48,901 nt of DNA from a virus. Lineage: Duplodnaviria; Heunggongvirae; Uroviricota; Caudoviricetes. Below are positions 1 through 48,901 of this stretch, piece after piece (the first letter of the stretch is position 1; every line of letters starts with the position of its first letter). Position numbers and translations under genes: made by a program. The notes under the pieces are model-generated. The model was not told where the DNA came from. It ran no database searches and saw only the letters and a list, made by a program, of their open reading frames with translations. The DNA lies in the IMG/VR virus record IMGVR_UViG_3300045988_155985; one strand, given 5' to 3'.

Positions 1-55
1 TTATACCCGAAACCGAGCGATACCCGCCCTGGTTAAACCGGAGATAACCCGATGA
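1..55 (+). promoter_or_regulatory. 3' part (conserved 5' leader and RBS) of the promoter-operator-leader cassette; identical to 48847-48901, so it continues from the window end
   Basis: Exact 55-bp identity between window start and window end; same leader precedes ATGs at 32394 and 41286. Confidence 0.5.
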
Positions 56-23564: not shown

Positions 23565-25799
23565 GTGAGTAAATTATTATTTACGATGACTGACGCCGGG
23601 CGTCAGGAGCTGGTTAATGCCAACAAAACAGGAACAAATAAAGTTGAGATTGTTTCTGTTGGTTTAGGTAGTAGATATTATGTCACGTCAACTTCACAAA
23701 CAAATATAACAAACGAAATAAAACGACTTACCACAATAGGTGGCAAAGTTGTTTCCCCTGATACAATTCATGTAACAGCGAAGGATGATAGTAAAGATGA
23801 GTATGTTGTCCATACAATAGGATTGTATACGAATAAGGGTACGTTGTTTGCTGTATACTCACAAGAACAAGCAATAATAAATAAAGCATCATCTACTATC
23901 GCTTTAATATCAAGTGATATAGCAATTAAAACTCTTGATACTAAAAATATTACATTTGGTGATATTGAGTTTATTAATCCTCCCGCGACCGAAACTGTTG
24001 TTGGGGTGGCAAGATTTGCTAATGAACAAGAAATTGATGCAGGTACAGATGATTCCCTTGCTGTTTCAGCAAAGCGGCTTAAGCAAGCCATTGTGAAACA
24101 TGAGCAATCACGTAATCATCCTGATGCAACTTTAACCTCAAAAGGCTTTGTTCAACTTAGCAGCGCCACCAATAGCACGTCTGAAACGCTTGCTGCGACG
24201 CCTAAGGCTGTTAAGGCAGCATATGACCTTGCTAACGCTAAATACACCGCACAGGACGCTACCACAGCGCGAAAAGGGATTGTTCAGCTCAGTAGTGCCA
24301 CCAACAGCACGTCTGAAACGCTAGCAGCAACACCAAAGGCTGTTAAGGCAGCGTATGATCTTGCGGTCGGAAAGGCTCCGTCCAATCACACGCATTCGTG
24401 GGAGCAGATAACAAATGTGCCTGTAGCTTCACTGACTGTAAGGGGAATAACTCAGCTCAGTAGTGCCACTAACAGCACGTCTGAAACGCTGGCTGCGACA
24501 CCAAAAGCTGTTAAGGCGGTAATGGATGAAACGAACAAGAAAGCGCCCTTAAACAGTCCTGCGCTGACCGGAACACCAACAACACCAACTGCGCCAAAAG
24601 GTACTAACAATACTCAGATCGCAAGCACGGCTTATGTTATGGCTGCGATCGCTGCCCTCGTGGACTCGTCGCCTGACGCACTGAATACGCTGAACGAGCT
24701 GGCTGCGGCGTTGGGCAACGACCCGAATTTTGCGACCACCATGACTAACGCGCTTGCGGGTAAGCAACCGAAAGATGCCACCCTGACGGCGCTGGCCGGG
24801 CTTGCTACTGCGGCAGACAGGTTTCCGTATTTTACGGGGAATGATGTTGCCAGTCTGGCAACCCTGACAAAAGTTGGGCGGGATATTCTTGCGAAATCGA
24901 CCGTTGCCGCCGTTATCGAATACCTCGGTTTGCAGGAAACGGTAAACAGGGCTGGTAACGCCGTGCAAAAAAATGGCGATACCTTGTCCGGTGGGCTTAC
25001 TTTTGAAAATGACTCAATCCTTGCTTGGATTCGAAATACTGACTGGGCGAAGATTGGATTTAAAAATGATGCCGATGGTGACACTGATTCATACATGTGG
25101 TTTGAAACAGGCGACAACGGCAATGAATATTTCAAATGGAGAAGCAAACAAAGCACCACAACAAAAGACCTGATGACGCTGAAATGGGATGCACTAAATA
25201 TTCTTGTTAATGCCGTCATTAATGGCAGCCTTGGAGTTGGTACGACGAATGCGTTAGGTGGTAGCTCTATTGTTCTTGGTGATAATGATACCGGATTTAA
25301 ACAGAATGGAGACGGTATTCTTGATGTTTACGCTAATAGTCAGCGAGTATTCCGCTTTCAGAATGGAGTTGCTATTGCTTTTAAAAACATTCAGGCAGGT
25401 GATAGTAAAAAATTCTCGCTATCCAGCTCCAACACCTCCACAAAGAATGTAACGTTTAATTTATGGGGTGCTTCAACCCGTCCAGTAGTTGCAGAGTTAG
25501 GCGATGAGGCAGGATGGCATTTCTATAGCCAGCGAAATACAGATAACTCGGTAATATTTTCTGTTAACGGTCAGATACAGCCCAGCAACTGGGGGAATTT
25601 TGATTCACGCTATGTAAAAGATGTTCGCCTGGGTACGCGAGTTGTTCAATTGATGGCGCGTGGTGGTCGTTATGAAAAAGCCGGACACGCAATTACCGGA
25701 TTAAGAATCATTGGTGAAGTAGATGGCGATGATGAAGCCATCTTCAGACCAATACAAAAATACATCAATGGCACATGGTATAACGTCGCACAGGTGTAA
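23565..25799 (+). CDS. tail fibre protein: constant N-terminal part plus variable C-terminal part in the currently expressed orientation
   Basis: 744 aa; GTG start after AAGGAA; internal fibre repeats; crossover site at 24923-24946 lies inside the gene. Confidence 0.8.
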   Translation: MSKLLFTMTDAGRQELVNANKTGTNKVEIVSVGLGSRYYVTSTSQTNITNEIKRLTTIGGKVVSPDTIHVTAKDDSKDEYVVHTIGLYTNKGTLFAVYSQEQAIINKASSTIALISSDIAIKTLDTKNITFGDIEFINPPATETVVGVARFANEQEIDAGTDDSLAVSAKRLKQAIVKHEQSRNHPDATLTSKGFVQLSSATNSTSETLAATPKAVKAAYDLANAKYTAQDATTARKGIVQLSSATNSTSETLAATPKAVKAAYDLAVGKAPSNHTHSWEQITNVPVASLTVRGITQLSSATNSTSETLAATPKAVKAVMDETNKKAPLNSPALTGTPTTPTAPKGTNNTQIASTAYVMAAIAALVDSSPDALNTLNELAAALGNDPNFATTMTNALAGKQPKDATLTALAGLATAADRFPYFTGNDVASLATLTKVGRDILAKSTVAAVIEYLGLQETVNRAGNAVQKNGDTLSGGLTFENDSILAWIRNTDWAKIGFKNDADGDTDSYMWFETGDNGNEYFKWRSKQSTTTKDLMTLKWDALNILVNAVINGSLGVGTTNALGGSSIVLGDNDTGFKQNGDGILDVYANSQRVFRFQNGVAIAFKNIQAGDSKKFSLSSSNTSTKNVTFNLWGASTRPVVAELGDEAGWHFYSQRNTDNSVIFSVNGQIQPSNWGNFDSRYVKDVRLGTRVVQLMARGGRYEKAGHAITGLRIIGEVDGDDEAIFRPIQKYINGTWYNVAQV
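24145..24530 (+). repeat. three imperfect direct repeats of about 78 bp inside the tail fibre gene
   Basis: Repeated peptide QLSSATNSTSETLAATPKAVKA; copies at about 24151, 24283 and 24451. Confidence 0.6.
24923..24946. repeat. left inverted repeat / recombination site of the invertible segment
   Basis: CCTCGGTTTGCAGGAAACGGTAAA; exact reverse complement at 27888-27911; core resembles gix/cix sites as recalled. Confidence 0.7.
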
Positions 25800-25802
25800 A
25801 TT

Positions 25803-26336
25803 ATGCAGCATTTAAAAAATATTAAGTCAGGAAATCCAAAAACAAAAGAGCAATATCAGCTAACAAAGAATTTTGATGTTATCTGGTTATGGTCCGAAGA
25901 CGGTAAAAACTGGTATGAAGAACAAAAGAACTTTCAGGAAAACACAATAAAGCTAGCTTACACAGCAGAGGGAATTATTGTTGCTATTGATAAGGATGTA
26001 TCGGCAATTAATCCAGAAGGTTTAAGCGTTGTTGAGTTGCCTGATATAACGGCCAATAGACGGGCTGATATTTCGGGTAACTGGATGTTCAAAGATGGCG
26101 CGGTGATAAAGCGAACTTATACCGAGGAGGAACAGAGGCAGCAGGCAGAGAATGAAAAGCAAAGCCTGTTGCAACTTGTCAGGGATAAAACCCAGCTATG
26201 GGACTCACAGCTACGGCTGGGTATCATTTCCGACGAGAATAAACTAAAATTAACCGAGTGGATGCTCTATGCGCAGAAAGTCGAATCTACAGACACCTCC
26301 AGCCTGCCAGTAACGTTTCCCGAACAACCAGAATGA
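25803..26336 (+). CDS. tail fibre assembly protein (expressed orientation)
   Basis: 177 aa; N-terminus [14 protein letters not shown] shared with the minus-strand paralog. Confidence 0.75.
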
Positions 26337-26364
26337 GACAAGGCCCGCTATCGGGCCTTAATTT

Positions 26365-26892
26365 TTATTCAGGCTTTTGTGGCCATTCAGGATTTGCCGT
26401 ATCCACACGGCTGACCAGAACACTGTAGCGTTCCCATGATTCCAGTCGTGCGCGTTCCTCATCCGTCGCCATATTCAGCCTGACAGCGCGCTCCAGTGGC
26501 TGAATAACGCTTTCTGCTTCGGAAAGTAACGCGGCCTTTTGTGATTCGGCCTGTTGTTGCTGTTCGTCAGCCGTATAAATCCGTTTAACCACAGCTCCGT
26601 CCTTAAACATCCACTTACCGGAATCATCGGCCCGACGATTGGTTGTTATATCGGGAACCTCAACGACGCTAAAACCTTCAGGGTTAAGCGTGGATGCATC
26701 TTTGGTGATGGCGACAATAATATTATTTTCATCGTAAACAATCTTTATGGTGTCTGGCTGAAAGTTTTTCACTTCCTCATACCAGTTTTTTCCGTCCTCA
26801 GAGTAAAGCCAGATAACTCCGTGTTTCTTTGTTAACTCATACTGTTCCAGTGTTTTAGCGTTACCCGCTTTTATGTTCTTTAAGTGCATCAT
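26365..26892 (-). CDS. alternative tail fibre assembly protein (silent orientation)
   Basis: 175 aa; paralogous N-terminus [14 protein letters not shown]; convergent to 25803-26336. Confidence 0.75.
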
Positions 26893-26893
26893 A

Positions 26894-27904
26894 TTAAACG
26901 CTCGCTACATTATACCAGGTGCCATTTATATACTTTTGAACGGGTCTGTAATAAACGCCCGCTATATTATCGGCAGAATTGGACCCTGTATCCTGAACAT
27001 TAATACCAGTCAATACATGACCTGACGGGCACTGGAAATTCCATGTTTGCCAGTTGTTCACGCCATAATATTGCTGTGAACCAAGTCGAACATCTTTCAC
27101 ATAACGGGAATCAAAGTTACCGTAATCTGAGGGATTAACACGCCCTGTAATATTTATGGTTTTATTACTTTGAATACTGCCGGAGACAAAGCGCATAACA
27201 TGGACGTTATTAGCATAAACATCCAGATACCCGTCGCCATTTTGTTTAAATCCCGTGTCATTATCACCCAAAACAATCGAGTTACCGCCAAGAGCACTGG
27301 ATGTACCGATGCCCAGTGCACCATTCAATTGACCTCCAGATAATGACAACGCCCCAACATCAGCAGCAGTCGGTTTAATGTGCGAACTGTAAATTACATA
27401 TACAGTTCCATCTGTCAGACCTGTTGGTTTATTCGCTGTATAAGTTGGTGATGTATGAATCGTTACGCTGGCGTTACTGGTATAATCCCACTGAATATTA
27501 ACACCTGTGGCGTAATTACCTATTTCAACATAAACATCATAGGTATCACCTGATGTATTCACCCATGCAAAATTAGTAAATCCAACCGATGTCCGTCGCC
27601 ATAACGCACCAGTAAGACCTTTTGGATTTCCATTTCCCGCACGAAGAACAAGTTCAGATATACCAGCCTGCATAGGGGAGTTAACATTATATCCAGCACC
27701 ACCAATCAGGCTTATGTAAACCACGGAACTGGCTTGTGGCATTGTTACAGTTGCCAGTTTGAACCATCCAGCACCACCACTAAAAGACATGGTTGTTGAA
27801 TTTGTTGTGCCGATATTACGCAGGAATAGTTTTTTATCGGGAATATCTGCGCCGTTCTGGTTTTTCTGTAATGCGCCAGAAGCCTGATTTACCGTTTCCT
27901 GCAA
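26894..27904 (-). CDS. alternative tail fibre C-terminal variable region (promoterless until inversion)
   Basis: Track start is TTG; encodes LQETVNQ which continues the fibre frame across the crossover site; shares [17 protein letters not shown] and C-terminal [11 protein letters not shown] with the plus-strand fibre. Confidence 0.7.
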
Positions 27905-27911
27905 ACCGAGG
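27888..27911. repeat. right inverted repeat / recombination site of the invertible segment
   Basis: TTTACCGTTTCCTGCAAACCGAGG, reverse complement of 24923-24946. Confidence 0.7.
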
Positions 27912-27985
27912 TTTTTGCGAATTGCCTCTGTGTCGTCTGAACGATATTTTTTCCCGCTTTTAGCAACAATCGCGGTTTAGAAAGT

Positions 27986-28540
27986 ATGCAATATGGTTAT
28001 GCGAGGGTGTCAACTTTTGACCAGAATTTGGAATTACAACTGGAGGCGCTCAGGAGTTTAGGATGTGACCGGATTTTTGAAGATAAAATATCCGGTGCTA
28101 AATCAAAACGACCAGGACTTGATAAGCTACTTAAGGTGTTACGGCCGGGCGATACGGTTATTGTCTGGAAGCTGGACCGAATGGGGCGTTCTCTGATTCA
28201 TCTTGTTGATTTACTTAACCATTTTTTATCAAACAACATTGAGTTTATTTCGATTACGGAAGGGATAAAAATTAGCACTTCAATTGGCCGCTTTGCCTAC
28301 ACGATGCTGAGTGCAGTCGCAGAGATGGAGCGGGAAAATATGATTGAAAGAACGCGTGCAGGATTGGCGGTGGCAAGGGCTAACGGCAGGATAGGAGGAC
28401 GCCGCTCAAAGCTGGCACCAGAGCAATGGGAACAGATCGGAAGGCTTATTGCGAATGGTGTTTCACGTAAGCGGATAGCGATTATCTTCGATGTTACCTT
28501 ATCCACGCTTTACCGCAGGTTTCCGGCTGGGAATCATTGA
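27986..28540 (+). CDS. serine-recombinase DNA invertase (Hin/Gin/Cin family)
   Basis: N-terminal GYARVSTFDQ with catalytic Ser, central resolvase motifs, C-terminal HTH; adjacent to the invertible segment. Confidence 0.9.
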   Translation: MQYGYARVSTFDQNLELQLEALRSLGCDRIFEDKISGAKSKRPGLDKLLKVLRPGDTVIVWKLDRMGRSLIHLVDLLNHFLSNNIEFISITEGIKISTSIGRFAYTMLSAVAEMERENMIERTRAGLAVARANGRIGGRRSKLAPEQWEQIGRLIANGVSRKRIAIIFDVTLSTLYRRFPAGNH

Positions 28541-32280: not shown

Positions 32281-32393
32281 TATTTATATAATTATAGATT
32301 TATATAAAAAGTGCTTTACAGGTGGGAAAAAATTTCCTAAGGTTATACCCGAAACCGAGCGATACCCGCCCTGGTTAAACCGGAGATAACCCG
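32281..32393 (+). promoter_or_regulatory. promoter-operator-leader cassette, copy B
   Basis: AT-rich repeat 32281-32310; -35-like TTTACA 32315-32320; 17-bp spacer with inverted repeat GGAAA-AAA-TTTCC; -10-like TAAGGT 32338-32343; conserved 50-nt leader. Confidence 0.5.
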
Positions 32394-32774
32394 ATGAGCA
32401 TGATTAAAATCCGCAAAAACGCTTTCCTTAAAATTCAAACTATCCTGGCTGGTTCTGTTGGCGTGATTTGCCGTTCTTCCTCAAGCCGCATCGATGACGG
32501 CTACGATGATGAGTATCGTGTGTCCTCATGCGATGAGGCTTTAACCTGGCTGAAGGAGAATCAGGAACGTGCCCAGGTATATCTGGAAACAGAGAACGGC
32601 AATCAGATGCTGCGTATTAGCGGTCGTTATGGATTTGAAACTACATTCATGGCCTATTTTAATCAGGCTTACTTTGACAAGGAGTTGGCTTGGTACACTG
32701 ATCGCATGAGCAAAAGCGAGCCAGCCCCGATTACACCGCCGAACAATAAACCATTTTTATTCCTCGTTAAGTAA
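32394..32774 (+). CDS. hypothetical protein, 126 aa, first gene of cassette B
   Basis: ORF track; ATG within conserved leader context. Confidence 0.5.
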   Translation: MSMIKIRKNAFLKIQTILAGSVGVICRSSSSRIDDGYDDEYRVSSCDEALTWLKENQERAQVYLETENGNQMLRISGRYGFETTFMAYFNQAYFDKELAWYTDRMSKSEPAPITPPNNKPFLFLVK

Positions 32775-33919: not shown

Positions 33920-35065
33920 TTATGGTCTGCTTTTCTGTGCCAGCTTATCAGCACATGTTTTTATCAGATCCTGTAGTGTCCTGGCTGGCAGGTTTGCATC
34001 CAGAACGCTGAGTATGCTGTTGTGATCAGCCTGGTCGACTACTTTGCCTGTCGGTGGTAGTAGCTTGAGCTGAGGATTCAGGTTTTCGTCAAAGCTGATA
34101 AGTGCTCTGGCGTTTCTGAGCAGATCAAGAAGTAAGGCTGATATCACATTTTCCTGAGTCATTGCTGGCAGATTTAGCGCCGCTTTAGTTTTCCCTGTTG
34201 CCTTGTCAAACTCCTTGATTAGTTCCTTCCTGTAGTTCGGTTCCGTTAATAGCCGATTATGCTCTGTTGCCGCGCGGATAATCGTTTTTTCCTGGTATAG
34301 TCGTTTAGCCAGATCACGCTCGTACTGTGTTTTTAACACGCTGCTGATAGCGTTAAAGGCTTCAATGTAGGCCAGCTTGATATCTTTCACGCCTGGACCG
34401 TCGATGCTCTCCATGAGCAAGGTAAATCCGTCTTTTGTCATGCGATAGATTGTTATTTCGCGGTCGCTTCCTTCCAGCGGTCGTTGTTCTTTAAAAAAGT
34501 GACGCGCCGCAGCTGTGCGAGGAATGCGTAACGCATCGATGGCCATAACGATGGAATTGTTTGTGGTGCTGAATGCCTGGGCAACATCGGCTGAGGTTGT
34601 GAGTGGCTCGTTATTGCACACCTTAATGTAAAACATCGGTTTGGCGTTGAGCGTATCGACAACCTCACGAGCATTGTTTGGCGAGACGGTTACGGTCGCG
34701 GCCGTTTGCGCGTTCTGGTTGAAATAGCAGTCTTCCAGTTTTTCGAACACATCCCAAGCCTGATCGGTTTCAAGCATTTTGGCGTGACGTGCAGCCCCGC
34801 GTTCTGTCCAGAGGATGAGGGAGCGGACTTTAGGTGAAACTGGATTTTGTGAGTAGTTTAAAGCTACCCGCAATTCTTTAAGGTCATTACCAACAACTTT
34901 GAAAAAGTGTTTCCCTTCAACGAAACGTACTTTGTTCTCATGATGATTCTGGCGAATACGCACCGGCTCAGTGCCGTAAAGCTGTGCCAGTAACTCGGTA
35001 GTAATGACAGGGATTTGGTTATGCAGGATAGGCTGTAGGGTGTTAACGGTCGGAAGCGTTTTCAT
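33920..35065 (-). CDS. antirepressor (Ant-like) with ORF6N/Rha-like domains
   Basis: 381 aa; N-terminal VITTELLAQLYG and central ADVAQAFS segments resemble antirepressor/Rha-family domains. Confidence 0.7.
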   Translation of the reverse strand: MKTLPTVNTLQPILHNQIPVITTELLAQLYGTEPVRIRQNHHENKVRFVEGKHFFKVVGNDLKELRVALNYSQNPVSPKVRSLILWTERGAARHAKMLETDQAWDVFEKLEDCYFNQNAQTAATVTVSPNNAREVVDTLNAKPMFYIKVCNNEPLTTSADVAQAFSTTNNSIVMAIDALRIPRTAAARHFFKEQRPLEGSDREITIYRMTKDGFTLLMESIDGPGVKDIKLAYIEAFNAISSVLKTQYERDLAKRLYQEKTIIRAATEHNRLLTEPNYRKELIKEFDKATGKTKAALNLPAMTQENVISALLLDLLRNARALISFDENLNPQLKLLPPTGKVVDQADHNSILSVLDANLPARTLQDLIKTCADKLAQKSRP

Positions 35066-35253: not shown

Positions 35254-35418
35254 TGTGATGATTCCCTTAAAGGTTAAGGATACTCACCACCGTCAGGTTC
35301 CAATCATTGGGTGGTGAGACGTGCAGGGTTGGAACTACCGGACACAATGACGAACCGGCGAGTCTTACGACTCCCCCGCACGCCCCACCATAATTTGGGT
35401 GTAGCAGTGCTTTACGCA

Positions 35419-35440
35419 TAAAAAAACCGCTAACGCGGTA
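35419..35440 (-). terminator. minus-strand rho-independent terminator
   Basis: On the minus strand: hairpin ACCGCGTTAGCGGT followed by TTTTTTT. Confidence 0.5.
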
Positions 35441-35585
35441 TGCGCCATTGTGTCTACGGGGTTCCAATCCCGACCGTAGATTTTGCTACGGCTCGGAAAG
35501 TGTCCACCAATGGCGCATTCATGTCAATACGGCGGGATTTTAACAGAGACAACCACATAGCGTGGGTTTATTGGTAGGCAGAAAC

Positions 35586-35613: not shown

Positions 35614-35760
35614 TTTCGTGCTGATCGGATTCGCGGTCCTTTCAGCATAACGTCGTTGTATAAACAACCACGCAAGCACAAGCGGCGTATCTATTCTTAC
35701 TCAACTGAGGTGAATAGTCCACTATTCATATAAAGAAATTTAGTTCCTTAGTTCATGCAG
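35586..35760 (-). ncRNA. candidate small regulatory RNA upstream of the ant operon (c4-like position)
   Basis: ORF-free leader on the minus strand ending at terminators; self-complementary motifs GGTTCCAA and TTGGAAC nearby; no promoter defined. Confidence 0.25.
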
Positions 35761-35999
35761 AATGAAGTTTTTTAACTTCTTCGGATGTAATTACATGTAA
35801 TAAAAGCATTTGTTATTCCTTCATTATGAAGGCGAGGACGTGTAATATGGCTTGGGGCCTTTTCGCCGATTCGCACCCGGGCACCGACTTTAAGGAAAGG
35901 ATCATCCACTTGCCGTACACGCAAGCACAAGCGGTGTGCTTGCTCTCGCGTCATTTTCGTCGGTGGAGATGCCGTGAAACGGCCTGTAAGGGCCACACA

Positions 36000-36122
36000 A
36001 TGAAAAAATACTACATGTGTATTTTTATCGTTGTTACTGGAGCTTTGTTTACGCCACATGGGGAGGGTTGGAAGATTACTGATAACGCTCTGAATGTGAC
36101 GATAAACATTAGCAGCAAGTAG
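36000..36122 (+). CDS. small hydrophobic peptide, 40 aa
   Basis: MKKYYMCIFIVVTGALF N-terminus; ATG 36000; strong terminator immediately downstream. Confidence 0.3.
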   Translation: MKKYYMCIFIVVTGALFTPHGEGWKITDNALNVTINISSK

Positions 36123-36128
36123 CGATTA

Positions 36129-36150
36129 GGCCCCTTCGGGGGCCTTTTTT
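36129..36150 (+). terminator. rho-independent terminator
   Basis: Hairpin GGCCCC-TTCG-GGGGCC followed by TTTTTT. Confidence 0.6.
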
Positions 36151-36372
36151 ATGGTTGAATTTAAACGCTGGAGCGCATTAAGCCTTTCAGAACTGCTTCA
36201 CGTACCCATTCTGGCCTGGTAGATAGCAGGGCAAATAAGCAACCAGCTTGCAGCCGTTTGAGGTCGGTTAGACGAGTTTTCAGTAACCGTGTATATTGTT
36301 GTTCGGACATAACAAATTCCCCTTGTTGTGTCGCGACGGCCAACAGTTGGCGCTGGAGGCCGTCACCTTCTC

Positions 36373-36627
36373 TTACTTCTGGTTGTATTGAGCCTTGAGT
36401 AACTCAAAAGACTTTGTCAGCACTTCTTTCAATGACATATCCATTGAGCTGGCGAACGTTTTGTACTCGCGTTTAAATTCAGGGTCGACGTTAAACGCCA
36501 TTTGTGCCCCACCTGATTTGGTTCTGGCTGGCGTTTCAGTCGGGTCGAAAACCTGCGGTTGTTCGATCGATGGCGGTACGCCTTTGCTGTTCTTCTTTGG
36601 TGGTTTTGATGGTGCGGCCATGTGCAT
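36373..36627 (-). CDS. small partition/centromere-binding protein, ParG-like (ribbon-helix-helix)
   Basis: 84 aa downstream of parA; basic flexible N-terminus and C-terminal RHH-like segment. Confidence 0.55.
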   Translation of the reverse strand: MHMAAPSKPPKKNSKGVPPSIEQPQVFDPTETPARTKSGGAQMAFNVDPEFKREYKTFASSMDMSLKEVLTKSFELLKAQYNQK

Positions 36628-36664
36628 CCCCTCTTATATAAATCTATAAAACTATAATTATATA

Positions 36665-37318
36665 TTACGCGGCAGTAGTCAGAGCCTCAAGCTGGTTGAT
36701 AATCCCCTGAATAACGTCGTCTGCCTTTTTGCGTGGCGCAACGTATGAGCACTCAATGAGGCTTAAGCCCTTATCCTGAGCTTTGCTCAGAGCTGGCTTG
36801 TGGGGAATGTACTTATCGACAACAAAGTATGGCGTATTAGCCAGGTACTCTTGGGCTTCAATATAGTCAGCTTCGTTTTCAGCCGCGCCGGAAAACACCA
36901 TGCAAATTTTCTTGATTGGTACACCCTTTTTAACGATGCCGTGAGCTGTGTTAACGGTGGTTTCCAGGTCATCGGTAGAGAATCTGGTTGGTAAAATAAC
37001 CATATCCAGAAATTCAGAGAGCTTCGGTACTGATTCAGATGCGTAGGCACCGCCATCGACGATAACCAGGTCGTATACTTCTGATTCGATGATTTTCTGG
37101 ACTTGTGATGGTGTGCCGCACGGCTGCGCCGCGATTGCTGGTTCGATATTGTTGGCCATTCTGCGTTGTACCCAACGCGTTACCGTTCCGTTAAGCACAT
37201 CCATATCGATCAGGCATACATTCCAGCCGGCCTTTGCATAAGCAACTGCTAAAGCACGGGCAATTGTTGATTTGGTTACGCCGCCTTTTCCGTTGAAAAT
37301 ACCTACAGAGATAGTCAT
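36665..37318 (-). CDS. parA: partition ATPase, small ParA (ParF-like, type Ib)
   Basis: Deviant Walker A GKGGVTKST; about 217 aa; ATG 37318 (track start 37333). Confidence 0.85.
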   Translation of the reverse strand: MTISVGIFNGKGGVTKSTIARALAVAYAKAGWNVCLIDMDVLNGTVTRWVQRRMANNIEPAIAAQPCGTPSQVQKIIESEVYDLVIVDGGAYASESVPKLSEFLDMVILPTRFSTDDLETTVNTAHGIVKKGVPIKKICMVFSGAAENEADYIEAQEYLANTPYFVVDKYIPHKPALSKAQDKGLSLIECSYVAPRKKADDVIQGIINQLEALTTAA

Positions 37319-37341
37319 TTGTCGAGACTCCATGTGTTTGG

Positions 37342-37446
37342 TTATATAATTCTATAAATCTATATTTATAGAACGAGGTAAGCATAACCAACTTTTTGGC
37401 GGATGAAAAGCGTTTTATATAATTATATAAAACTATAATCATATAA
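37342..37446. repeat. AT-rich TATAATTATA-type repeat cluster upstream of parA; candidate centromere/operator
   Basis: Two blocks (37342-37373, 37412-37446); a related block at 36632-36667 between parA and parG. Confidence 0.4.
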
Positions 37447-37468: not shown

Positions 37469-37843
37469 TCAGAGGTCAGCTATCGTTGATATCAGTTGAT
37501 TTGCTAGCTGTCGCTGTTTACGTGAGAGGGTTAGAGCTGCTTCTGAGCGGTCGCTAAGAGGGGTATTCTCATCGAGAATCATGAGGCATACAGAAATGAT
37601 AGCTCTGTTATATGCCATCAATGACTGGCACAGCTTTGATACAGAAGGCACATCGTATTGTAAGGCTGTTTTGAGGCAGGCTTTTTGCTCGTAAGCAAGA
37701 TGAAGGGTAGATGATATCCAGTCGATATCTTTCTCATTATCAATGATTTGGCATAACATACACTCAATCGCTATGTTCAACGCTTGGATTTCGATTCCAG
37801 CAGTGATCAGAGTTTCGTTTTTATTGGCTGTATGTAATTCCAT
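37469..37843 (-). CDS. hypothetical protein, 124 aa, downstream of the repressor gene
   Basis: ORF track; ATG 37843; operator palindrome 37879-37893 just upstream. Confidence 0.45.
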   Translation of the reverse strand: MELHTANKNETLITAGIEIQALNIAIECMLCQIIDNEKDIDWISSTLHLAYEQKACLKTALQYDVPSVSKLCQSLMAYNRAIISVCLMILDENTPLSDRSEAALTLSRKQRQLANQLISTIADL

Positions 37844-37935: not shown

Positions 37936-38592
37936 TCATAACCAGTTGACAACACTAACTACGCGGCCCAGAACTTTATAACGCTTAAATTCCTCGTTAT
38001 TCAGATGCTTAGTGTTCATTTCAGCATCCCTTTCGGTTGACAGCATAACAGCATTGTCACCCGGTATGACTCTACAGTGCCTCAAAACAACCAGGCCATT
38101 TCTGTCTTCAAGGGCATAGATCCCCTCATGAATCTCTGTATCGTCTGTATTAATCAGGACTTGGGAGCCAGGGGATATTGTTGGTGACATTAACTCATCG
38201 TTGCTCTGGAGAACTGACAGAGACGATGAGTTGATGTTCTTGCTTCGTAGAATCTCCTGTTCTATCGCCAGCACTGGCTTTTCTCCGGCGTGCGATGCTA
38301 TGTCATTTTTTATAGCTACAAGCCCAGGAATAACAGGAGCGTTAGTATTCTGGGGTGGGAACGGGTTATCTGTTAAGCACGCGATATAAGGCGCTGATGC
38401 TTTCAGGGCGTGCGCGATTTTCTTGATGGCAGGTATAGATGGTTGTCTTAATCCGGCCTCATAGTTCTGCAAGGTGCTTAAGCCTATTCCAGTGACTTGC
38501 TGGAGATCTCCGGCAGTCATGCCGGATTGTTTCCGTAGAGTCTGAATGCGCAGACCTATTTCTTTCTTGATGTTCTCGTCGTTGCTTTTCAT
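37936..38592 (-). CDS. prophage repressor, cI/LexA-like (N-terminal HTH, C-terminal S24 peptidase-like)
   Basis: HTH GMTAGDLQQVTGIGLSTLQNYE; C-terminal segment with Ser and Lys candidates; divergent from cro-like gene. Confidence 0.8.
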   Translation of the reverse strand: MKSNDENIKKEIGLRIQTLRKQSGMTAGDLQQVTGIGLSTLQNYEAGLRQPSIPAIKKIAHALKASAPYIACLTDNPFPPQNTNAPVIPGLVAIKNDIASHAGEKPVLAIEQEILRSKNINSSSLSVLQSNDELMSPTISPGSQVLINTDDTEIHEGIYALEDRNGLVVLRHCRVIPGDNAVMLSTERDAEMNTKHLNNEEFKRYKVLGRVVSVVNWL

Positions 38593-38629
38593 GTCTCATC
38601 AATCGTGAATGGTGGGTTATTTATACATT

Positions 38630-38747
38630 ACCACATTTAGTGGTTTTCACATGGTAAGACGAGAGGTGGACCACAAATAGAAGGTTATTTTTTGTTTCGC
38701 CCATTGAAAAACTCACGATATGTGGTTTTAATACCACATATCGTGGT
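38630..38747. promoter_or_regulatory. operator cluster in the cI-cro intergenic region
   Basis: ACCACATTTAGTGGT at 38630-38644, imperfect CTCACGATATGTGGT at 38712-38726, ACCACATATCGTGGT at 38733-38747, half-site at 38670. Confidence 0.5.
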
Positions 38748-38765
38748 TTAACTGGAGTTCGTTAA

Positions 38766-41166: not shown

Positions 41167-41285
41167 AAATCTATAAATATATAATTATAGATTTATATAA
41201 AAAGTGCTTTACAGGTGGGAAAAAATTTCCTAAGGTTATACCCGAAACCGAGCGATACCCGCCCTGGTTAAACCGGAGAAATCTG
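41167..41285 (+). promoter_or_regulatory. promoter-operator-leader cassette, copy C
   Basis: AT-rich repeat 41167-41203; TTTACA 41208-41213; spacer with GGAAA-AAA-TTTCC; TAAGGT 41231-41236; conserved leader. Confidence 0.5.
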
Positions 41286-42353
41286 ATGAATAAACAAGAA
41301 ATTATTTCTGACTGGATCAACAACCCTAACAGCCTGTTAAGCACTGATACTGGCTACCTATTACGCCATGTTAATGGTCGTATGGTCAAAAGCGATGAGC
41401 ACGAAACCTTTTTCTTTGTTGAAGACGATGGGCGCATCTATGAGGATGGTTACTCTTATGAAGCCCAAACTGGTTGTATCCCTGCGGAGCTGGTGGACGT
41501 AACAGAAGATCTGCGCAAAGCATGGCTTGAACAGCAGCAGCGCGGAGATGATTACGTAAACACCTATCAGGAACGCCAGAACGCGCGTCTTGCCCGATAT
41601 ATTGCTCGTGCAGAAAAAGCCAGAAAAGAAGGTGCGGTAGCGCATAAGCGAGCGCATGACCTGTTGGATGTGATCCCGTTAGGCCAGCCGATTTTAGTTG
41701 ACCATTATAGCGCGAAAGGCCATCGCCGCCGTTTGTCTAAAGCTGATGCGTTATTAAGAAAAGCGTTTGTTGAATGCGAAAGTAAAGCATCACACTACGA
41801 GAGCAAAGCCGCAGGTGTTGGTCGTAATGGAATTTCGTCTGATGATCCTGATGCGCTATTTAAGTTGCTTCGTAAGCTGCAAGGCTGCATGAAGTCACAC
41901 GTCAAAATGAAGGCCGCAAATAAGGCCATTCGCAAATACAAAAAAGACCAATTACAGCAGCTTTCTGCATTAATCGATCTCAGGTTTACAGAAAGCGAAG
42001 CCAAAGAGTTACTGGCCGGAGATTTCTGTGGGCGCATCGGATTCCCTTCATACGCACTGAGCAACAATAACGCCGAAATCAAACGACTACAGAGCCGTAT
42101 TAAGGAGCTTGAATCGGTCAAGTCTGTAACAGGAGCACAGCGCGAAGAATACGACGGCTTTTCTATGGAGATAGATCCAGAGGATAACCGCATCCTGTTT
42201 TATTTCCCTGGCAAACCAGAGGCAAACATTCGTTCGCTGCTTAAATCACGCGCCTTTAAGTGGAGTCCAACCCGTAATGCATGGGTTCGCAAGATTACTC
42301 CAAACGCCCTGGCTGATGCCCGATATCTAAAAGAATCGCTATTGAAAGCCTGA
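41286..42353 (+). CDS. hypothetical protein, 355 aa, first gene of cassette C
   Basis: ORF track; basic helical C-terminal half; no catalytic motif recognised. Confidence 0.5.
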   Translation: MNKQEIISDWINNPNSLLSTDTGYLLRHVNGRMVKSDEHETFFFVEDDGRIYEDGYSYEAQTGCIPAELVDVTEDLRKAWLEQQQRGDDYVNTYQERQNARLARYIARAEKARKEGAVAHKRAHDLLDVIPLGQPILVDHYSAKGHRRRLSKADALLRKAFVECESKASHYESKAAGVGRNGISSDDPDALFKLLRKLQGCMKSHVKMKAANKAIRKYKKDQLQQLSALIDLRFTESEAKELLAGDFCGRIGFPSYALSNNNAEIKRLQSRIKELESVKSVTGAQREEYDGFSMEIDPEDNRILFYFPGKPEANIRSLLKSRAFKWSPTRNAWVRKITPNALADARYLKESLLKA

Positions 42354-42363
42354 CAGTAAGCCT

Positions 42364-42390
42364 ACGGCGGGACGTCTCCCGCCGTATATA
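42364..42390 (+). terminator. hairpin/terminator after the 355-aa gene
   Basis: Perfect 9-bp stem ACGGCGGGA-CGTC-TCCCGCCGT followed by AT-rich tract. Confidence 0.4.
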
Positions 42391-42430
42391 GAATTATATA
42401 TTTATATAAATGTATAAGGACGCCTCGACA

Positions 42431-42712
42431 ATGAAACGCAAAATTATTAACCCCCAAGATGTGATTAATTTCCTGACCGATCACCCATGTTCAAAAGTGG
42501 ACGTAATCGCGGAGCACATTGGTGTGTCGCAGAACTCTATGCGTTGCAGACTGAGAAGCATGGTTGCCGAAGGACAGATAACAACCAGGAAAATAAATGG
42601 TTGCCTGTACTACTCCGCTAAACCGGAATTGCCATTTGGCATGAATCCTAACTCCATGTTGTTTAACACCTTATTAGCCAAAGTTAAGCCGTTGAGAGGG
42701 GCTGTGGCATGA
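42431..42712 (+). CDS. winged-helix DNA-binding protein
   Basis: HTH-like DVIAEHIGVSQNSMRCRLRSMVAEGQI; ATG 42431 after AAGGA (track start 42410). Confidence 0.45.
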   Translation: MKRKIINPQDVINFLTDHPCSKVDVIAEHIGVSQNSMRCRLRSMVAEGQITTRKINGCLYYSAKPELPFGMNPNSMLFNTLLAKVKPLRGAVA

Positions 42713-47520: not shown

Positions 47521-47644
47521 TACCGCCTGTGATTGGGTAAAGCCCATCTACCTGACTGATCACGACATCGATGTTATGGACCGCCAGACAAAGAAAGATA
47601 TTCTGGCTCATAACAGGGCATGGGAAATCAACTGCCCAAAGTAA
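47435..47644 (+). CDS. o-spanin (Rz1-like lipoprotein), overlapping the i-spanin in another frame
   Basis: Lipobox-like LIASC with Cys at residue 18; starts inside 47242-47520. Confidence 0.6.
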   Translation: MYSRVLTIWLMTMLIASCGSRGSVPVVVDTACDWVKPIYLTDHDIDVMDRQTKKDILAHNRAWEINCPK

Positions 47645-47813
47645 TATATATTTCTGTAATTATATAAATATATAGTTACAACATTCTATGCGCTTTTCTC
47701 ATGAGCGCACGCATCAACCATGTTTGTCTGATATGCCGCCGCGCCCAAAAATCCTGAATTTATTGGCTGGGATTTTCGTGCGCGGCGCCACACCAGACAA
47801 ACAGATCAAATAT

Positions 47814-47889
47814 GGCCCCTTAGCTCAGTGGTTAGAGCAGGCGACTCATAATCGCACGGTCATCGGTTCAAATCCGGTAGGGGCCACCA
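47814..47889 (+). tRNA. tRNA with CAU anticodon (Met or lysidine-dependent Ile2; resembles ileX-type)
   Basis: Perfect 7-bp acceptor stem GGCCCCT/AGGGGCC; D-arm GCTC/GAGC; anticodon loop CTCATAA; T-arm with TTCAAAT; encoded 3' CCA. Confidence 0.85.
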
Positions 47890-48102
47890 ATTCACTCTCA
47901 CACATAAAGATGAGCACGAAGGAAGTAACTCCACCGCGCTTATCTTTATGCGTGCCTGGTGCGCATTTCGGGCGAACGTGGGGCTAAGTTACAGGCAGGG
48001 CCTGTTATCCGCAAAGGGGTAAAAGCTGGAGCGGCACGGAACTGTAGCCGTGTTACCAAAACAGCGTTGTCGGGCGATATCCGGCACACAACAGGCAAGG
48101 GC

Positions 48103-48197: not shown

Positions 48198-48785
48198 ATG
48201 GAGGCAATTGCATTGTTTAATCTGATTTATGCAGATCCCCCCTGGGAATACAAAGACAAGTGTAAGGATGGGAATCGTGGCGCTGGTTTTAAGTATCCAA
48301 CGATGAAAGCTGAGGATATTGCTCGTATTCCTGTCTGGCAGCTTGCTAATCCTGAATCGTGTTTGTTGGCCATGTGGTGGGTTCCGACTCAGCCAGAAGA
48401 AGCGTTGCTGGTGGTGAAAGCATGGGGATTCAGGCTGATGACCATGAAGGGCTTCACATGGAACAAATGTGGTAGCCGACAGCCAGACAAGCTGGTGATG
48501 GGGATGGGGCATATGACTCGTGCAAACAGTGAAGATTGCTTGTTTGCGGTAAAAGGCAAACTGCCGACCCGCCTTGATGCGGGGATTATTCAGTCGTTTA
48601 CATCGCCTCGTCTGGAGCATTCTCGGAAGCCTGATGTGGTCCGTGACAAGCTGGTAAAGCTGTTAGGCGATGTTCCTCGTATTGAGCTGTTTGCTCGCGG
48701 TGATTTACCTGATGGCTGGCATGGCTGGGGCAACCAGTGCAACGGAGGTATCCAGTTGCATGATGCTCTCTGGCAAATGTCATAG
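48198..48785 (+). CDS. DNA N6-adenine methyltransferase, MT-A70 family
   Basis: LIYADPPWEY (DPPW motif); 195 aa. Confidence 0.75.
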   Translation: MEAIALFNLIYADPPWEYKDKCKDGNRGAGFKYPTMKAEDIARIPVWQLANPESCLLAMWWVPTQPEEALLVVKAWGFRLMTMKGFTWNKCGSRQPDKLVMGMGHMTRANSEDCLFAVKGKLPTRLDAGIIQSFTSPRLEHSRKPDVVRDKLVKLLGDVPRIELFARGDLPDGWHGWGNQCNGGIQLHDALWQMS

Positions 48786-48901
48786 AATTATATAATTATA
48801 GATTTATATAAAAAATGCTTTACAGGTGGGAAAAAATTTCCTAAGGTTATACCCGAAACCGAGCGATACCCGCCCTGGTTAAACCGGAGATAACCCGATG
48901 A
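48786..48901 (+). promoter_or_regulatory. promoter-operator-leader cassette, copy D (same physical copy as window start on the circle)
   Basis: AT-rich repeat 48786-48815; TTTACA 48819-48824; spacer with GGAAA-AAA-TTTCC; TAAGGT 48842-48847; leader continues as 1-55. Confidence 0.5.

What the first reader, a model, noticed from the sequence alone, without database searches (positions are those of the whole stretch)
36632..37446. AT-rich repeat family shared between the partition locus and the promoter cassettes
Blocks of the same AT-rich repeat family (cores like TATAATTATA, CTATAAA, TTATATAA) lie upstream of parA (37342-37373, 37412-37446) and between parA and parG (36632-36667). The same family forms the upstream part of all three promoter cassettes and occurs at 42384-42419 and 47642-47682. 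Dispersed centromere-like sites that double as promoter-proximal elements are known for linear prophage plasmids such as N15; here they would couple segregation to expression of accessory operons.
Basis: partly seen in the sequence, partly recalled or inferred. Interest (0 to 1): 0.65.

Follow-up and report, generated by a model that had tools for sequence, protein, structure and literature searches.

The report
Partition-protein binding arrays scattered over a phage-plasmid
Eight short arrays of a repeated 8-base unit (TTATATAA) mark the plasmid-partition genes and five other gene starts of this E. coli phage-plasmid; related elements carry a different repeat at the same places that changes together with their small partition protein, so these are most likely that protein's binding sites, used for both segregation and gene control.

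Summary
The window is a ~48.8-kb circular phage-plasmid. It holds exactly eight arrays, seven of four contiguous 8-bp units and one of three, with a palindromic consensus TTATATAA. Three flank or lie inside the parA/parG-like operon. Three lie just upstream of the -35 of the three repeated promoter cassettes. Two lie at 42386 and 47644. They are not generic AT-rich DNA: TATA-N4 x4 gives 14 hits against 0.01 expected, a motif-free lag-8 scan recovers only these sites, and 12 other AT-rich blocks lack the pattern.

The 82-aa gene after the ParF-like ParA is an unannotated ribbon-helix-helix protein with a disordered basic tail, ParG-like in architecture but not in sequence. In seven divergent lineages of this protein family the par promoter carries arrays with 8-bp periodicity (8/16 bp in the weakest case, L011) and a lineage-specific unit. 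In four lineages the same unit is also dispersed. Serratia has homologous promoter cassettes but with its own repeat type.

Best reading: these are ParG-like binding sites acting as par operator/centromere plus dispersed operator or centromere sites. The closest analogues are TP228 ParG-parH/OF and pSM19035 omega; N15 resembles it only in the dispersal of sites. Binding, direction of regulation and centromere activity are untested. I rate it a new variant of a known kind.

The parts
36634..36665 (.). Array A: 4 x 8 bp (TTATATAA ATCTATAA AACTATAA TTATATAT). It fills the parA-parG intergenic gap and abuts the parG ribosome-binding site.
   Evidence: The Salmonella orthologue keeps the TATA cores while other unit positions change. 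Salinicola also has an own-type array between parA and parG.
37342..37373 (.). Array B: 4 x 8 bp (TTATATAA TTCTATAA ATCTATAT TTATAGAA), directly upstream of the parA ribosome-binding site. It overlaps the best candidate -10 and the 5'UTR, so it is the putative par operator.
   Evidence: Arrays sit in the same position in Serratia, the Vibrio phage, Salinicola, L009 and L010.
37415..37446 (.). Array C: 4 x 8 bp (TTATATAA TTATATAA AACTATAA TCATATAA), upstream of the par promoter and just after the hairpin that ends the upstream gene.
36665..37318 (-). parA: a short Walker-type (ParF-like, type Ib) partition ATPase. The likely start is ATG 37318 (MTISVG...), as in homologues; the ORF lister extends it to 37333.
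   Evidence: Pfam CbiA/ParA/MipZ hits. NCBIfam ParA_partition E=4.7e-22 but below its cut-off. PDB ParF 4dzz E=3e-4. Alignment A2.
36373..36621 (-). ParG-like centromere-binding protein, 82 aa from ATG 36621. It has a disordered basic N-terminal tail (KPPKKNSKGVPP) and a C-terminal ribbon-helix-helix.
   Evidence: No Pfam/NCBIfam/PDB sequence hit for this protein itself. The family of about 45 clusters has a conserved LNFxV strand plus two helices. 11/45 members hit Pfam RHH_10. AF2 gives residues 41-80 pLDDT above 90 with two helices. Top Foldseek hits are dominated by RHH proteins, TM to target 0.66-0.87 among the top dozen, but none is significant. hhalign to TP228 ParG aligns the RHH domain in register, E=2.8e-4, prob 41%.
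32284..32307 (.). Cassette-1 array: 3 x 8 bp (TTATATAA TTATAGAT TTATATAA), ending 7 bp upstream of the -35.
   Evidence: Also 3 units in Salmonella.
32315..32343 (+). Cassette-1 promoter-like site TTTACA-N17-TAAGGT. The same site recurs at 41208-41236 and 48819-48847. The spacer holds the palindrome GGAAAAAATTTCC.
   Evidence: This is a consensus reading only.
41169..41200 (.). Cassette-2 array: 4 x 8 bp (ATCTATAA ATATATAA TTATAGAT TTATATAA), upstream of the DUF3560 operon.
48780..48811 (.). Cassette-3 array: 4 x 8 bp (TCATAGAA TTATATAA TTATAGAT TTATATAA), upstream of the operon that crosses the window start (gene at 52-273 and onward).
   Evidence: Window 1-55 equals 48847-48901.
42386..42417 (.). 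Array G: 4 x 8 bp. It lies after the hairpin that ends the DUF3560 gene and abuts the ribosome-binding site of the gene at 42431. It shares the 'array + AGGAnCCTCGACAATG' layout with the parA leader.
   Evidence: A homologous layout with the Serratia-type array sits before a Lar-family gene.
47644..47675 (.). Array H: 4 x 8 bp (ATATATAT TTCTGTAA TTATATAA ATATATAG), about 140 bp upstream of a tRNA-Met gene (47814-47889), in a stretch with no annotated CDS in relatives.

Best explanation
The arrays are cooperative binding sites for the 82-aa ribbon-helix-helix protein encoded after parA. This protein is a ParG-like, type Ib centromere-binding protein. I infer that one dimer sits on each palindromic 8-bp unit, so a 4-unit array would hold about four dimers side by side. 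The three par-proximal arrays (12 units in 815 bp) would act as operator and centromere of the parA-parG operon. The five distal arrays bring the same protein to the upstream edge of three identical promoters, roughly -74 to -43 (the UP-element zone), and to two further gene starts. There it most likely modulates transcription, probably repressing it when fully occupied. The distal arrays may also serve as extra attachment points for the ParA-driven segregation machinery.

Shown here: the array family, its 8-bp architecture, its statistical distinctness, its conservation, the RHH nature of the protein, and the co-variation of repeat unit with protein across lineages.

Inferred: physical binding, one dimer per unit, the sign of regulation, and centromere activity of any array.
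For: 1. Architecture. Tandem 8-bp units (4-bp invariant core plus 4-bp spacer) flank or overlap the par promoter. This is the layout of the TP228 ParG sites OF and parH, where ACTC boxes are separated by 4-bp AT-rich spacers and each box takes one dimer (PMC3130281).

2. Protein. A short ParF-like ParA is followed by a small RHH protein with a disordered basic tail.

3. Co-variation at the par promoter. Seven lineages of the protein family each have their own unit; six show clear 8-bp periodicity and L011 shows a less regular 8/16-bp pattern.
- E. coli/Salmonella: TTATATAA.
- L009: AWWTAYRT.
- Serratia: TAAATAWW.
- Vibrio phage/Paraglaciecola: AGCACGAA.
- Salinicola: AAGCTATA.
- L010: TAGCGAWW.
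- L011: CATG-type, in a non-phage context.

4. Co-variation at dispersed sites. Each lineage's own unit also occurs away from par. Serratia has 4 extra arrays (32 hits against 0.03 expected). The Vibrio phage has 6 extra (19 against 0.54). Salinicola has 3 extra (8 against 0.01). Cross-scans find no clean foreign-type arrays: there are none of the E. coli or Vibrio type outside their own lineages, and the only cross hits are high-mismatch matches, nearly all inside each element's own AT-rich arrays.

5. Natural swap. Serratia has three promoter cassettes homologous to those here in -35, spacer palindrome, -10 and leader, but with Serratia-type arrays upstream.

6. Conservation. The window, two further E. 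coli plasmids and a Salmonella plasmid each have exactly 8 arrays at orthologous sites, even where the flanks have diverged.

7. Unit number. In pSM19035, at least four contiguous repeats are the minimum for omega-dependent ParA ATPase activation (PMC9499535). Seven of the eight arrays here have exactly four units.
Against: - There are no binding data of any kind.
- A clear sigma-70 promoter for parA is not evident in the E. coli version. The best candidate is TTGGTT-N15-TATAAA, and the scan tool lists none.
- TP228 needs about 8 boxes for efficient centromere activity, and 4 boxes give about half, so single 4-unit arrays may be weak centromeres.
- AT-rich DNA upstream of a -35 can work as an UP element without any dedicated protein.
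- In L009 and L011 only par-local arrays were seen in the 15-20 kb available, so dispersal is not universal in the family.
Confidence: 0.72

Rival explanations
1. ParG-like regulon without dispersed centromeres. The protein binds all arrays, but only the par-proximal cluster (arrays A-C) acts as centromere. The distal arrays are pure operators of a global repressor, as for omega or KorB-type regulators.
For: Distal arrays sit at fixed positions relative to promoters or ribosome-binding sites. 12 of the 31 units are clustered at par. TP228 data suggest 4 boxes make a weak centromere.
Against: In the Vibrio phage the dispersed arrays sit in tiny gaps inside the late operon with no promoter-like context, which fits attachment or roadblock sites better than classical operators. 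For omega, 4 contiguous repeats suffice to activate ParA.
Confidence: 0.35
2. The blocks are generic AT-rich promoter-proximal DNA: UP elements, intrinsically bent DNA, or sites for host nucleoid proteins such as H-NS, Fis or IHF. Any link to ParG is coincidental.
For: The arrays are 92% A+T. In the cassettes they occupy the UP-element zone upstream of the -35. They are rich in TpA steps.
Against: They have strict 8-bp periodicity, invariant positions and a fixed 4-unit length. 12 other AT-rich blocks lack the pattern. Composition-matched random sequence never scores like them. In relatives the equivalent positions carry G+C-containing units (AGCACGAA, AAGCTATA, TAGCGA) that cannot be UP elements or H-NS sites. 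A dual role as UP element in the E. coli lineage is not excluded.
Confidence: 0.07
3. The arrays are bound by a different co-inherited protein. Candidates are the small conserved ORF after parG (MSEQQY..., 36161-36310), the 124-aa ORF upstream of parA (37469-37843), or the CI-like repressor (37936-38592).
For: These genes are syntenic with par in E. coli, Salmonella and Serratia, so co-variation there does not separate them from ParG.
Against: The arrays with 8-bp periodicity travel with parA-parG in contexts that lack those genes: Salinicola, L009 and L011 (non-phage). L010 ends too soon after parG to tell. The CI-like repressor has its own, different inverted-repeat candidates (ACCACAT..GTGGT) in its divergent promoter region. 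Neither small ORF has a recognisable DNA-binding fold. Tandem sub-helical-turn repeats are typical of RHH proteins, not HTH dimers (general knowledge: MetJ, omega, ParG).
Confidence: 0.08
4. The arrays and cassettes are module-boundary repeats that promote recombinational shuffling of accessory operons, like promoter-stem-loop boundaries in other phages. The repeat family reflects duplication rather than protein binding.
For: The three cassettes are 92-99% identical over 114 nt, so they are duplicates. Gene content between the arrays differs among relatives.
Against: Duplication does not explain the non-cassette arrays (A, B, C, G, H), whose flanks are unrelated. It does not explain the 8-bp unit structure, or the replacement of the array type in otherwise homologous Serratia cassettes. 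It may be an additional consequence rather than an alternative.
Confidence: 0.05

Closest known systems
TP228 ParF-ParG with parH centromere and OF operator (type Ib partition)
   Same: A short Walker ParA is followed by a small dimeric RHH protein with a flexible N-terminal tail. The binding sites are tandem 4-bp boxes plus 4-bp AT-rich spacers, so the period is 8 bp, in mixed orientation upstream of and overlapping the operon promoter. The operator doubles as centromere (PMC3130281).
   Different: The protein has no significant sequence similarity to ParG (marginal hhalign). The box is TATA within the palindromic TTATATAA, not ACTC. The sites are split into 4-unit arrays, one of them between parA and parG, and are dispersed to five other loci, whereas TP228 has one contiguous 20-box region.
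pSM19035 omega (RHH ParB) with parS heptad arrays at the PcopS, Pdelta and Pomega promoters
   Same: An RHH centromere-binding protein has contiguous short repeats overlapping several promoters, so the partition protein also acts as a global regulator. At least 4 contiguous repeats are the functional minimum. The regulator can activate or repress depending on occupancy (PMC9499535; PMC4627068).
   Different: The unit is a 7-bp non-palindromic WATCACW in arrays of 7-10, against an 8-bp palindromic unit in arrays of 3-4 here. The host is a Firmicute plasmid, not a phage-plasmid. Omega targets copy control, par and a toxin-antitoxin system. Here the targets are three identical promoter cassettes plus other phage-plasmid genes.
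N15 SopAB with four separate centromere inverted repeats (IR1-4)
   Same: It is a phage-plasmid whose centromere sites are several separate sites rather than one block (four IRs, PMC7205306). That they are dispersed around the genome is from my own knowledge. The partition system is reported to affect late gene expression (Ravin, Rech and Lane 2008, title only, via the reference list of PMC11652158).
   Different: N15 is type Ia: a large HTH ParB-family SopB that spreads, and single palindromic sites. Here the system is type Ib with an RHH protein and tandem 8-bp arrays.
MetJ repressor and met-box arrays (own knowledge, not tested here)
   Same: An RHH dimer binds each 8-bp palindromic box. 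There are 2-5 boxes in tandem, with cooperative contacts between neighbouring dimers. This gives the geometric precedent for one dimer per 8 bp.
   Different: MetJ is a chromosomal metabolic repressor that needs a co-repressor. It has no partition role and no ParA partner.

Membership tests
Type Ib ParA/RHH partition system (ParF-ParG-like) | Short Walker-type ParA (about 200-225 aa) without an N-terminal HTH domain | tested here: met
   217-222 aa. Pfam CbiA/ParA/MipZ hits. Nearest solved partition ATPases are TP228 ParF/ParA 4dzz and 5u1g, E about 3e-4. The NCBIfam ParA_partition hit is below its cut-off, 78.5 against 180 bits.
Type Ib ParA/RHH partition system (ParF-ParG-like) | A small centromere-binding protein gene immediately downstream, with a ribbon-helix-helix fold and a flexible N-terminal tail | tested here: met
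   AF2: residues 1-40 low confidence; strand region plus H48-60 and H65-81 with pLDDT above 90. Foldseek top hits are dominated by RHH proteins (PutA, CdbA, AmrZ, CopG, Arc, ParD), but none is significant. 11/45 family members hit Pfam RHH_10.
Type Ib ParA/RHH partition system (ParF-ParG-like) | Tandem short repeats upstream of or overlapping the operon promoter | tested here: met
   Arrays B and C here. The same layout occurs in six other lineages, each with its own unit.
Type Ib ParA/RHH partition system (ParF-ParG-like) | The protein binds the repeats, autoregulates the operon and supports plasmid stability | not testable with these tools
   Needs EMSA or footprinting, reporter fusions and stability assays.
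ParG protein family in the sequence sense (TP228 ParG, Pfam ParG) | Significant sequence similarity to ParG | tested here: not met
   No Pfam hit for the protein and none to ParG for any of 45 family members. phmmer and profile searches against PDB do not retrieve 1p94. hhalign of the family profile against ParG gives E=2.8e-4, prob 41%, restricted to the RHH domain.
pSM19035 omega-type global regulator/centromere system | An RHH centromere-binding protein whose repeat arrays lie in several promoter regions of the replicon | tested here: met
   Arrays lie at three cassette promoter-like sites, at the par promoter and at two further gene starts. The same holds in Serratia.
pSM19035 omega-type global regulator/centromere system | 7-bp WATCACW heptads and sequence homology to omega | tested here: not met
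   The unit is 8 bp, TTATATAA. No omega chain appears among the PDB sequence or fold hits.
N15/F Sop-type (type Ia) system with dispersed centromeres | A large HTH ParB/SopB protein and a ParA with an N-terminal DNA-binding domain | tested here: not met
   The centromere-binding protein is an 82-aa RHH and ParA is about 217 aa. The ParB/Srx-domain proteins elsewhere in the element are fused to or next to methyltransferases, not to par.
N15/F Sop-type (type Ia) system with dispersed centromeres | Several centromere-like sites dispersed over the replicon | tested here: inconclusive
   Dispersal of the sites is shown. Their centromere activity is not testable here.

The most novel reading that the evidence does not exclude
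The partition protein acts as a second, copy- or segregation-sensing master regulator of the phage-plasmid. It would sit on lineage-specific arrays placed in front of a conserved, thrice-repeated promoter cassette, and in Vibrio relatives inside the late operon. It would thereby tie expression of anti-restriction, methylase and late functions, and perhaps the lysis-lysogeny balance, to the state of the segregation complex. Every 4-unit array would also be a working mini-centromere. The array type can be exchanged as a module when the protein's specificity changes.
Probability: 0.2. Interest if true: 0.8.

Novelty: new variant of a known kind. Interest (0 to 1): 0.55.

Why it matters
Phage-plasmids are common carriers of accessory genes in Enterobacteria, and this family alone has more than 60 sequenced members, including the plasmid of the reference strain E. 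coli ATCC 25922. Their par protein is annotated only as "hypothetical protein" and has no Pfam family.

If the reading is right, it gives this protein family a function and a predictable binding code: an 8-bp unit that changes with the beta-strand residues. It also shows that a type Ib partition protein has been wired into a conserved promoter cassette in a phage-plasmid, extending the omega/KorB idea of partition proteins as global regulators.

The E. coli and Serratia cassettes, homologous but carrying different arrays, are a ready-made specificity-swap experiment. The arrays would also predict incompatibility between co-resident phage-plasmids.

Tried and rejected
- Sequence searches of the 82-aa protein against Pfam, NCBIfam and PDB found nothing.
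- A profile of 45 homologues against PDB gave only a weak RHH hit, SvtR 2kel, E=0.69.
- The search for homologous proteins returned only relatives of at least 80% identity. The exhaustive representative search was needed to reach divergent members.
With the ParA alignment it gave only 2 genome loci.
- The promoter scan did not identify a convincing sigma-70 promoter for parA on the minus strand, so operator-promoter overlap in the E. coli version rests on a weak manual candidate.
- Erwinia phage LS-2018a has a homologous parA-parG pair, but I could not define a clear repeat unit upstream, so I left it out.
- The palindrome GGAAAnnnTTTCC in the cassette spacer is not clearly enriched (6 hits against 2.3 expected). 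I did not pursue it as an operator.
- I considered and rejected iterons of the RepA origin, because no array lies near the repA region around 28.7-30 kb. This rests on position only; I did not search for iterons.
- I considered and rejected CI operators, because the CI-like repressor's divergent promoter region holds different inverted repeats.
- No paper on this phage-plasmid family or on the Yersinia phages vB_YpM_39/41/44 was found. The N15 primary papers are not held.
Full report
**What the window is**

The first 55 bases repeat at 48847-48901, so the window is a circle of about 48.85 kb read slightly past its start. It is 95-99% identical over the par region to 57 of the 62 matching non-mobilizable plasmids of 46-52 kb from Escherichia, Salmonella and Klebsiella, including the 48.5-kb plasmid of E. 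coli ATCC 25922. It also matches three Yersinia phages, vB_YpM_39/41/44. Relatives are annotated with a RepA replicon, a RelE/ParE toxin-antitoxin pair, a CI-like repressor, an antirepressor, terminase, portal, capsid, contractile-tail genes and an invertible tail-fibre segment. It is a phage-plasmid.

**Checking the observation**

In register they are:
- 36634-36665, between parA and the next gene.
- 37342-37373 and 37415-37446, upstream of parA.
- 32284-32307, 41169-41200 and 48780-48811, the upstream parts of the three repeated promoter cassettes.
- 42386-42417 and 47644-47675.

Each block is a head-to-tail array of 8-bp units: four per array, three in cassette 1, 31 units in all. The unit is the palindrome TTATATAA. 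T4 is invariant (31/31), A7 is invariant (31/31), A5 is 30/31, and an A/C choice at position 3 is mirrored by a T/G choice at position 6. C- or G-containing units occur in both orientations within one array.

**Is it more than AT-richness?**

- The pattern TATA-N4 repeated four times, with up to 2 mismatches, gives 14 matches at seven loci. Dinucleotide-preserving shuffles give 0.01.
- A scan that assumes no motif counts self-matches at lag 8 in a 32-bp window. It returns seven regions, all of them these arrays. The same scan finds none at periods 7 or 9-12.
- The window has 20 blocks with at least 26/30 A+T. The other 12 are A- or T-run sequences, mostly inside genes, without the lag-8 signal seen in seven of the eight arrays.
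- A position matrix built from the units is partly circular. It scores the seven 4-unit arrays at 36-43 bits, cassette 1 at 22.7 and the next best site in the circle at 6.3. 200 kb of random sequence with the arrays' own 92% A+T composition never reaches 30 bits.

All eight arrays are intergenic and lie in the 32.3-48.8 kb non-structural arc.

**The par genes**

parA (36665-37318, minus strand) is a short Walker ATPase. It has Pfam CbiA/ParA/MipZ hits. Its nearest solved partition ATPases are TP228 ParF/ParA, E about 3e-4. The NCBIfam ParA_partition hit is below its cut-off.

The next gene (36373-36621; 82 aa from the second ATG, as in homologues) has no Pfam, NCBIfam or PDB sequence match. 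An exhaustive search found about 45 clusters of 74-92-aa relatives. They share a basic N-terminal motif (MAxxxKPPKKxxKGxPP), a variable linker, and then LNFxV-xxEFxRExKxFA-xxDMSMxELLxxxFELYK.

- Eleven of the 45 hit Pfam RHH_10, others hit Antitox_RHH or 56B_RHH, and none hits ParG.
- AlphaFold2 with this alignment gives a low-confidence residues 1-40 and a confident residues 41-80 with two helices.
- A profile-sequence comparison with TP228 ParG (sequence verified as 1p94) aligns the whole RHH domain in register, but only at E=2.8e-4 and 41% probability.

So this is a type Ib, ParF/ParG-like module in architecture. The protein is ParG-like in fold and layout but is not a demonstrable member of the ParG sequence family.

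**Anatomy at the par locus**

Read on the minus strand, the order is as follows:
- The hairpin that ends the upstream gene.
- Array C.
- About 40 bp that hold the only candidate promoter, TTGGTT-N15-TATAAA. It is weak, and the scan tool lists none.
- Array B, which overlaps that -10 and runs up to the parA ribosome-binding site.
- parA.
- Array A, which fills the whole parA-parG gap up to the parG ribosome-binding site.

In Salmonella and Serratia a better promoter lies between the two upstream arrays: TTCCAA-N17-TATCAT and TTTACA-N17-TAATCT respectively. The layout is a promoter sandwiched by arrays. This matches TP228, where the OF operator and parH centromere are ACTC boxes separated by 4-bp AT-rich spacers, each box takes one ParG dimer, and both regions have centromere activity (PMC3130281).

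**Comparative test: does the repeat follow the protein?**

I collected seven lineages of the protein family together with their DNA. In each, arrays sit at the par promoter, but the unit differs. Six show clear 8-bp periodicity; L011 is less regular.

| Lineage | Unit |
|---|---|
| E. coli/Salmonella | TTATATAA |
| Metagenomic phage-plasmid L009 (48% identical protein) | AWWTAYRT |
| Serratia pJSRIV006_2 (40% identical) | TAAATAWW |
| Vibrio phage PE002A and a Paraglaciecola contig | AGCACGAA |
| Salinicola corii | AAGCTATA, again with an array between parA and parG |
| L010 | TAGCGAWW/TCGCTAAW |
| L011, a non-phage context with conjugation genes | CATG-type, 8/16-bp spacing |

Cross-scans find no clean foreign-type arrays. 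The window, the Salmonella plasmid and the ATCC 25922 plasmid each have eight E. coli-type loci and no Vibrio-type loci. Serratia has six own-type loci and no E. coli-type loci. All but two of them fall inside each element's own AT-rich arrays, and the two exceptions are isolated single hits.

The residues expected to face DNA on the beta-strand also differ: Q-A-N in E. coli, P-N-N in Serratia, P-N-K in Vibrio and L-N-R in Salinicola. Lys or Arg appears where the unit contains G/C. I derived this by eye, by alignment to Arc Q9/N11/R13; it is an inference, not a test.

**Are dispersed arrays a shared trait?**

In four lineages the own-type unit also occurs away from par.
- Serratia has four further arrays (32 hits against 0.03 expected).
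- The Vibrio phage has six, mostly in the few bases between late genes (19 against 0.54).
- Salinicola has three in the 18 kb available (8 against 0.01).
- In L009 and L011 only par-local arrays were seen in the 15-20 kb available.

The most telling case is Serratia. It has three promoter cassettes homologous to those of this window. They share the -35 (CTTTACA against CTTGCA), the palindrome-bearing spacer, the -10, and a leader ending AACCGGAGATAA..GATGA. Their upstream arrays, however, are of the Serratia type, the same as at the Serratia par promoter. A second shared layout is 'array + AGGAnCCTCGACAATG'. It occurs at the parA leader and before a second gene in both elements, again with each element's own array type. 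Within the close family, the window, two further E. coli plasmids and a Salmonella plasmid each keep exactly eight arrays at orthologous sites, although the Salmonella flanks and the unit positions outside the TATA core have changed.

**Mechanism proposed**

The RHH protein binds the arrays, probably one dimer per 8-bp unit and cooperatively. The precedents are ParG on 8-bp-spaced boxes and, from my own knowledge, MetJ on tandem 8-bp palindromic met boxes.

At par the arrays would serve as operator and centromere. In the cassettes the array spans roughly -74 to -43, given TTTACA-N17-TAAGGT, which is the UP-element zone. A bound array could block RNA polymerase alpha-subunit contacts and repress, or recruit polymerase at partial occupancy. 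Both behaviours are documented for omega at its own promoter (PMC4627068).

Seven of the eight arrays have four units. Four contiguous repeats are the minimum that lets omega activate its ParA (PMC9499535), so each array could be a minimal partition site. Against this, TP228 data indicate that four boxes give only about half the centromere activity. Binding, the sign of regulation and centromere activity are all inferred.

**Rivals**

- Generic AT-rich promoter DNA or host nucleoid-protein sites cannot explain the periodicity, the invariant positions, or the G+C-containing equivalents in relatives. An additional UP-element role in E. coli remains possible.
- A different co-inherited binder is possible in principle: the small MSEQQY ORF after parG, the 124-aa ORF before parA, or the CI-like repressor. 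It is unlikely, because the arrays travel with parA-parG where those genes are absent, and the repressor region has its own, different inverted repeats.
- Module-boundary recombination repeats may be a side effect of the duplicated cassettes. They do not explain the unit structure or the array swap.
- The main open alternative is internal to the model: the distal arrays may be operators only, with the centromere confined to the par-proximal cluster.

**Comparison with known systems and novelty**

In function this resembles TP228 ParFG-parH/OF in geometry and pSM19035 omega in having a partition RHH protein with repeat arrays in several promoters. N15 is similar only in being a phage-plasmid with several separate centromere sites. 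Its system is type Ia with an HTH SopB.

The following appear to be undescribed in the literature I could search:
- The protein family itself, annotated only as hypothetical protein and with no Pfam family of its own.
- Its lineage-specific repeat units.
- The placement of these arrays in front of a conserved, repeated promoter cassette, and inside late operons in Vibrio relatives.

I rate it a new variant of a known kind, with interest 0.55.

Noticed in passing
window 32308-32397, 41201-41290, 48812-48901 (=1-55); L002 16935-17027, 19275-19367, 26235-26324: The promoter-plus-leader part of the three cassettes is conserved between E. coli, Salmonella and Serratia. The -35/-10 spacer holds a palindrome: GGAAAAAATTTCC in E. 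coli, TAGGAAAATATTTCCTA in Salmonella, TAGGA-N7-TCCTA in Serratia. The leader shows a possible compensatory stem, AACC...GGTT in E. coli against GGCC...GGCC in Serratia, just before the ribosome-binding site. This suggests a second regulator site and a structured leader RNA.
   Followed up: partly
window 35307-35395 (-), 35420-35492 (-), 35853-36150 (+): Rfam finds a C4 antisense RNA and an isrK RNA upstream of the antirepressor gene (33920-35065, minus strand), which resembles P1/P7 immI-type control. It also finds a ryfA RNA (type I toxin-like locus) just downstream of the par operon.
   Followed up: no
window 47644-47889: Array H lies about 140 bp upstream of a tRNA-Met gene (47814-47889). 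A 34-nt-arm inverted repeat (47721-47754 / 47770-47803) lies in between. Relatives annotate no CDS here, so the 99-aa ORF at 47688-47987 is probably not real.
   Followed up: partly
window 36161-36310 (-); L002 20987-21133 (-): A small conserved ORF (MSEQQYTRLLK... / MSEQQYKQILK..., about 48 aa) follows the ParG-like gene in E. coli and Serratia, and a similar start (MSQEQY) follows it in the Vibrio phage. It could be a third par-operon gene of unknown role.
   Followed up: partly
window 24919-27915 and 27986-28540: There is an invertible tail-fibre segment. Long inverted repeats (348-nt arms 25802-26149 / 26546-26893 and outer 55-nt arms) hold alternative tail-fibre and assembly genes, next to a 184-aa serine recombinase (Cin/Hin-like).
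   Followed up: no
window 24140-24532 and 18498-18782: In-frame tandem repeats lie inside structural genes: three copies of a 93-nt repeat in the tail-fibre gene and three copies of a 45-nt repeat at 120-nt spacing in the tape-measure gene.
   Followed up: no
window 38600-38750: The divergent region between the CI-like repressor (37936-38592, minus) and the early operon (38766 onward) contains inverted repeats of the ACCACAT...GTGGT type, including a 13-bp-stem hairpin at 38714-38745. These are probable repressor operators and are unrelated to the 8-bp arrays.
   Followed up: no
L003 5209-5232, 19250-19281, 20693-20716, 26386-26409, 29737-29760, 36536-36559: In the Vibrio phage the dispersed arrays all have the same orientation, purine-rich on the sense strand. 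They fill the few bases between a stop codon and the next start inside the late operon, so they would also be part of the mRNA's translation-initiation regions.
   Followed up: partly
window 35669-35688 and 35918-35937: A 20-nt direct repeat, CACGCAAGCACAAGCGG(C/T)GT, occurs twice 249 bp apart, flanking the start of the ryfA-like region.
   Followed up: no
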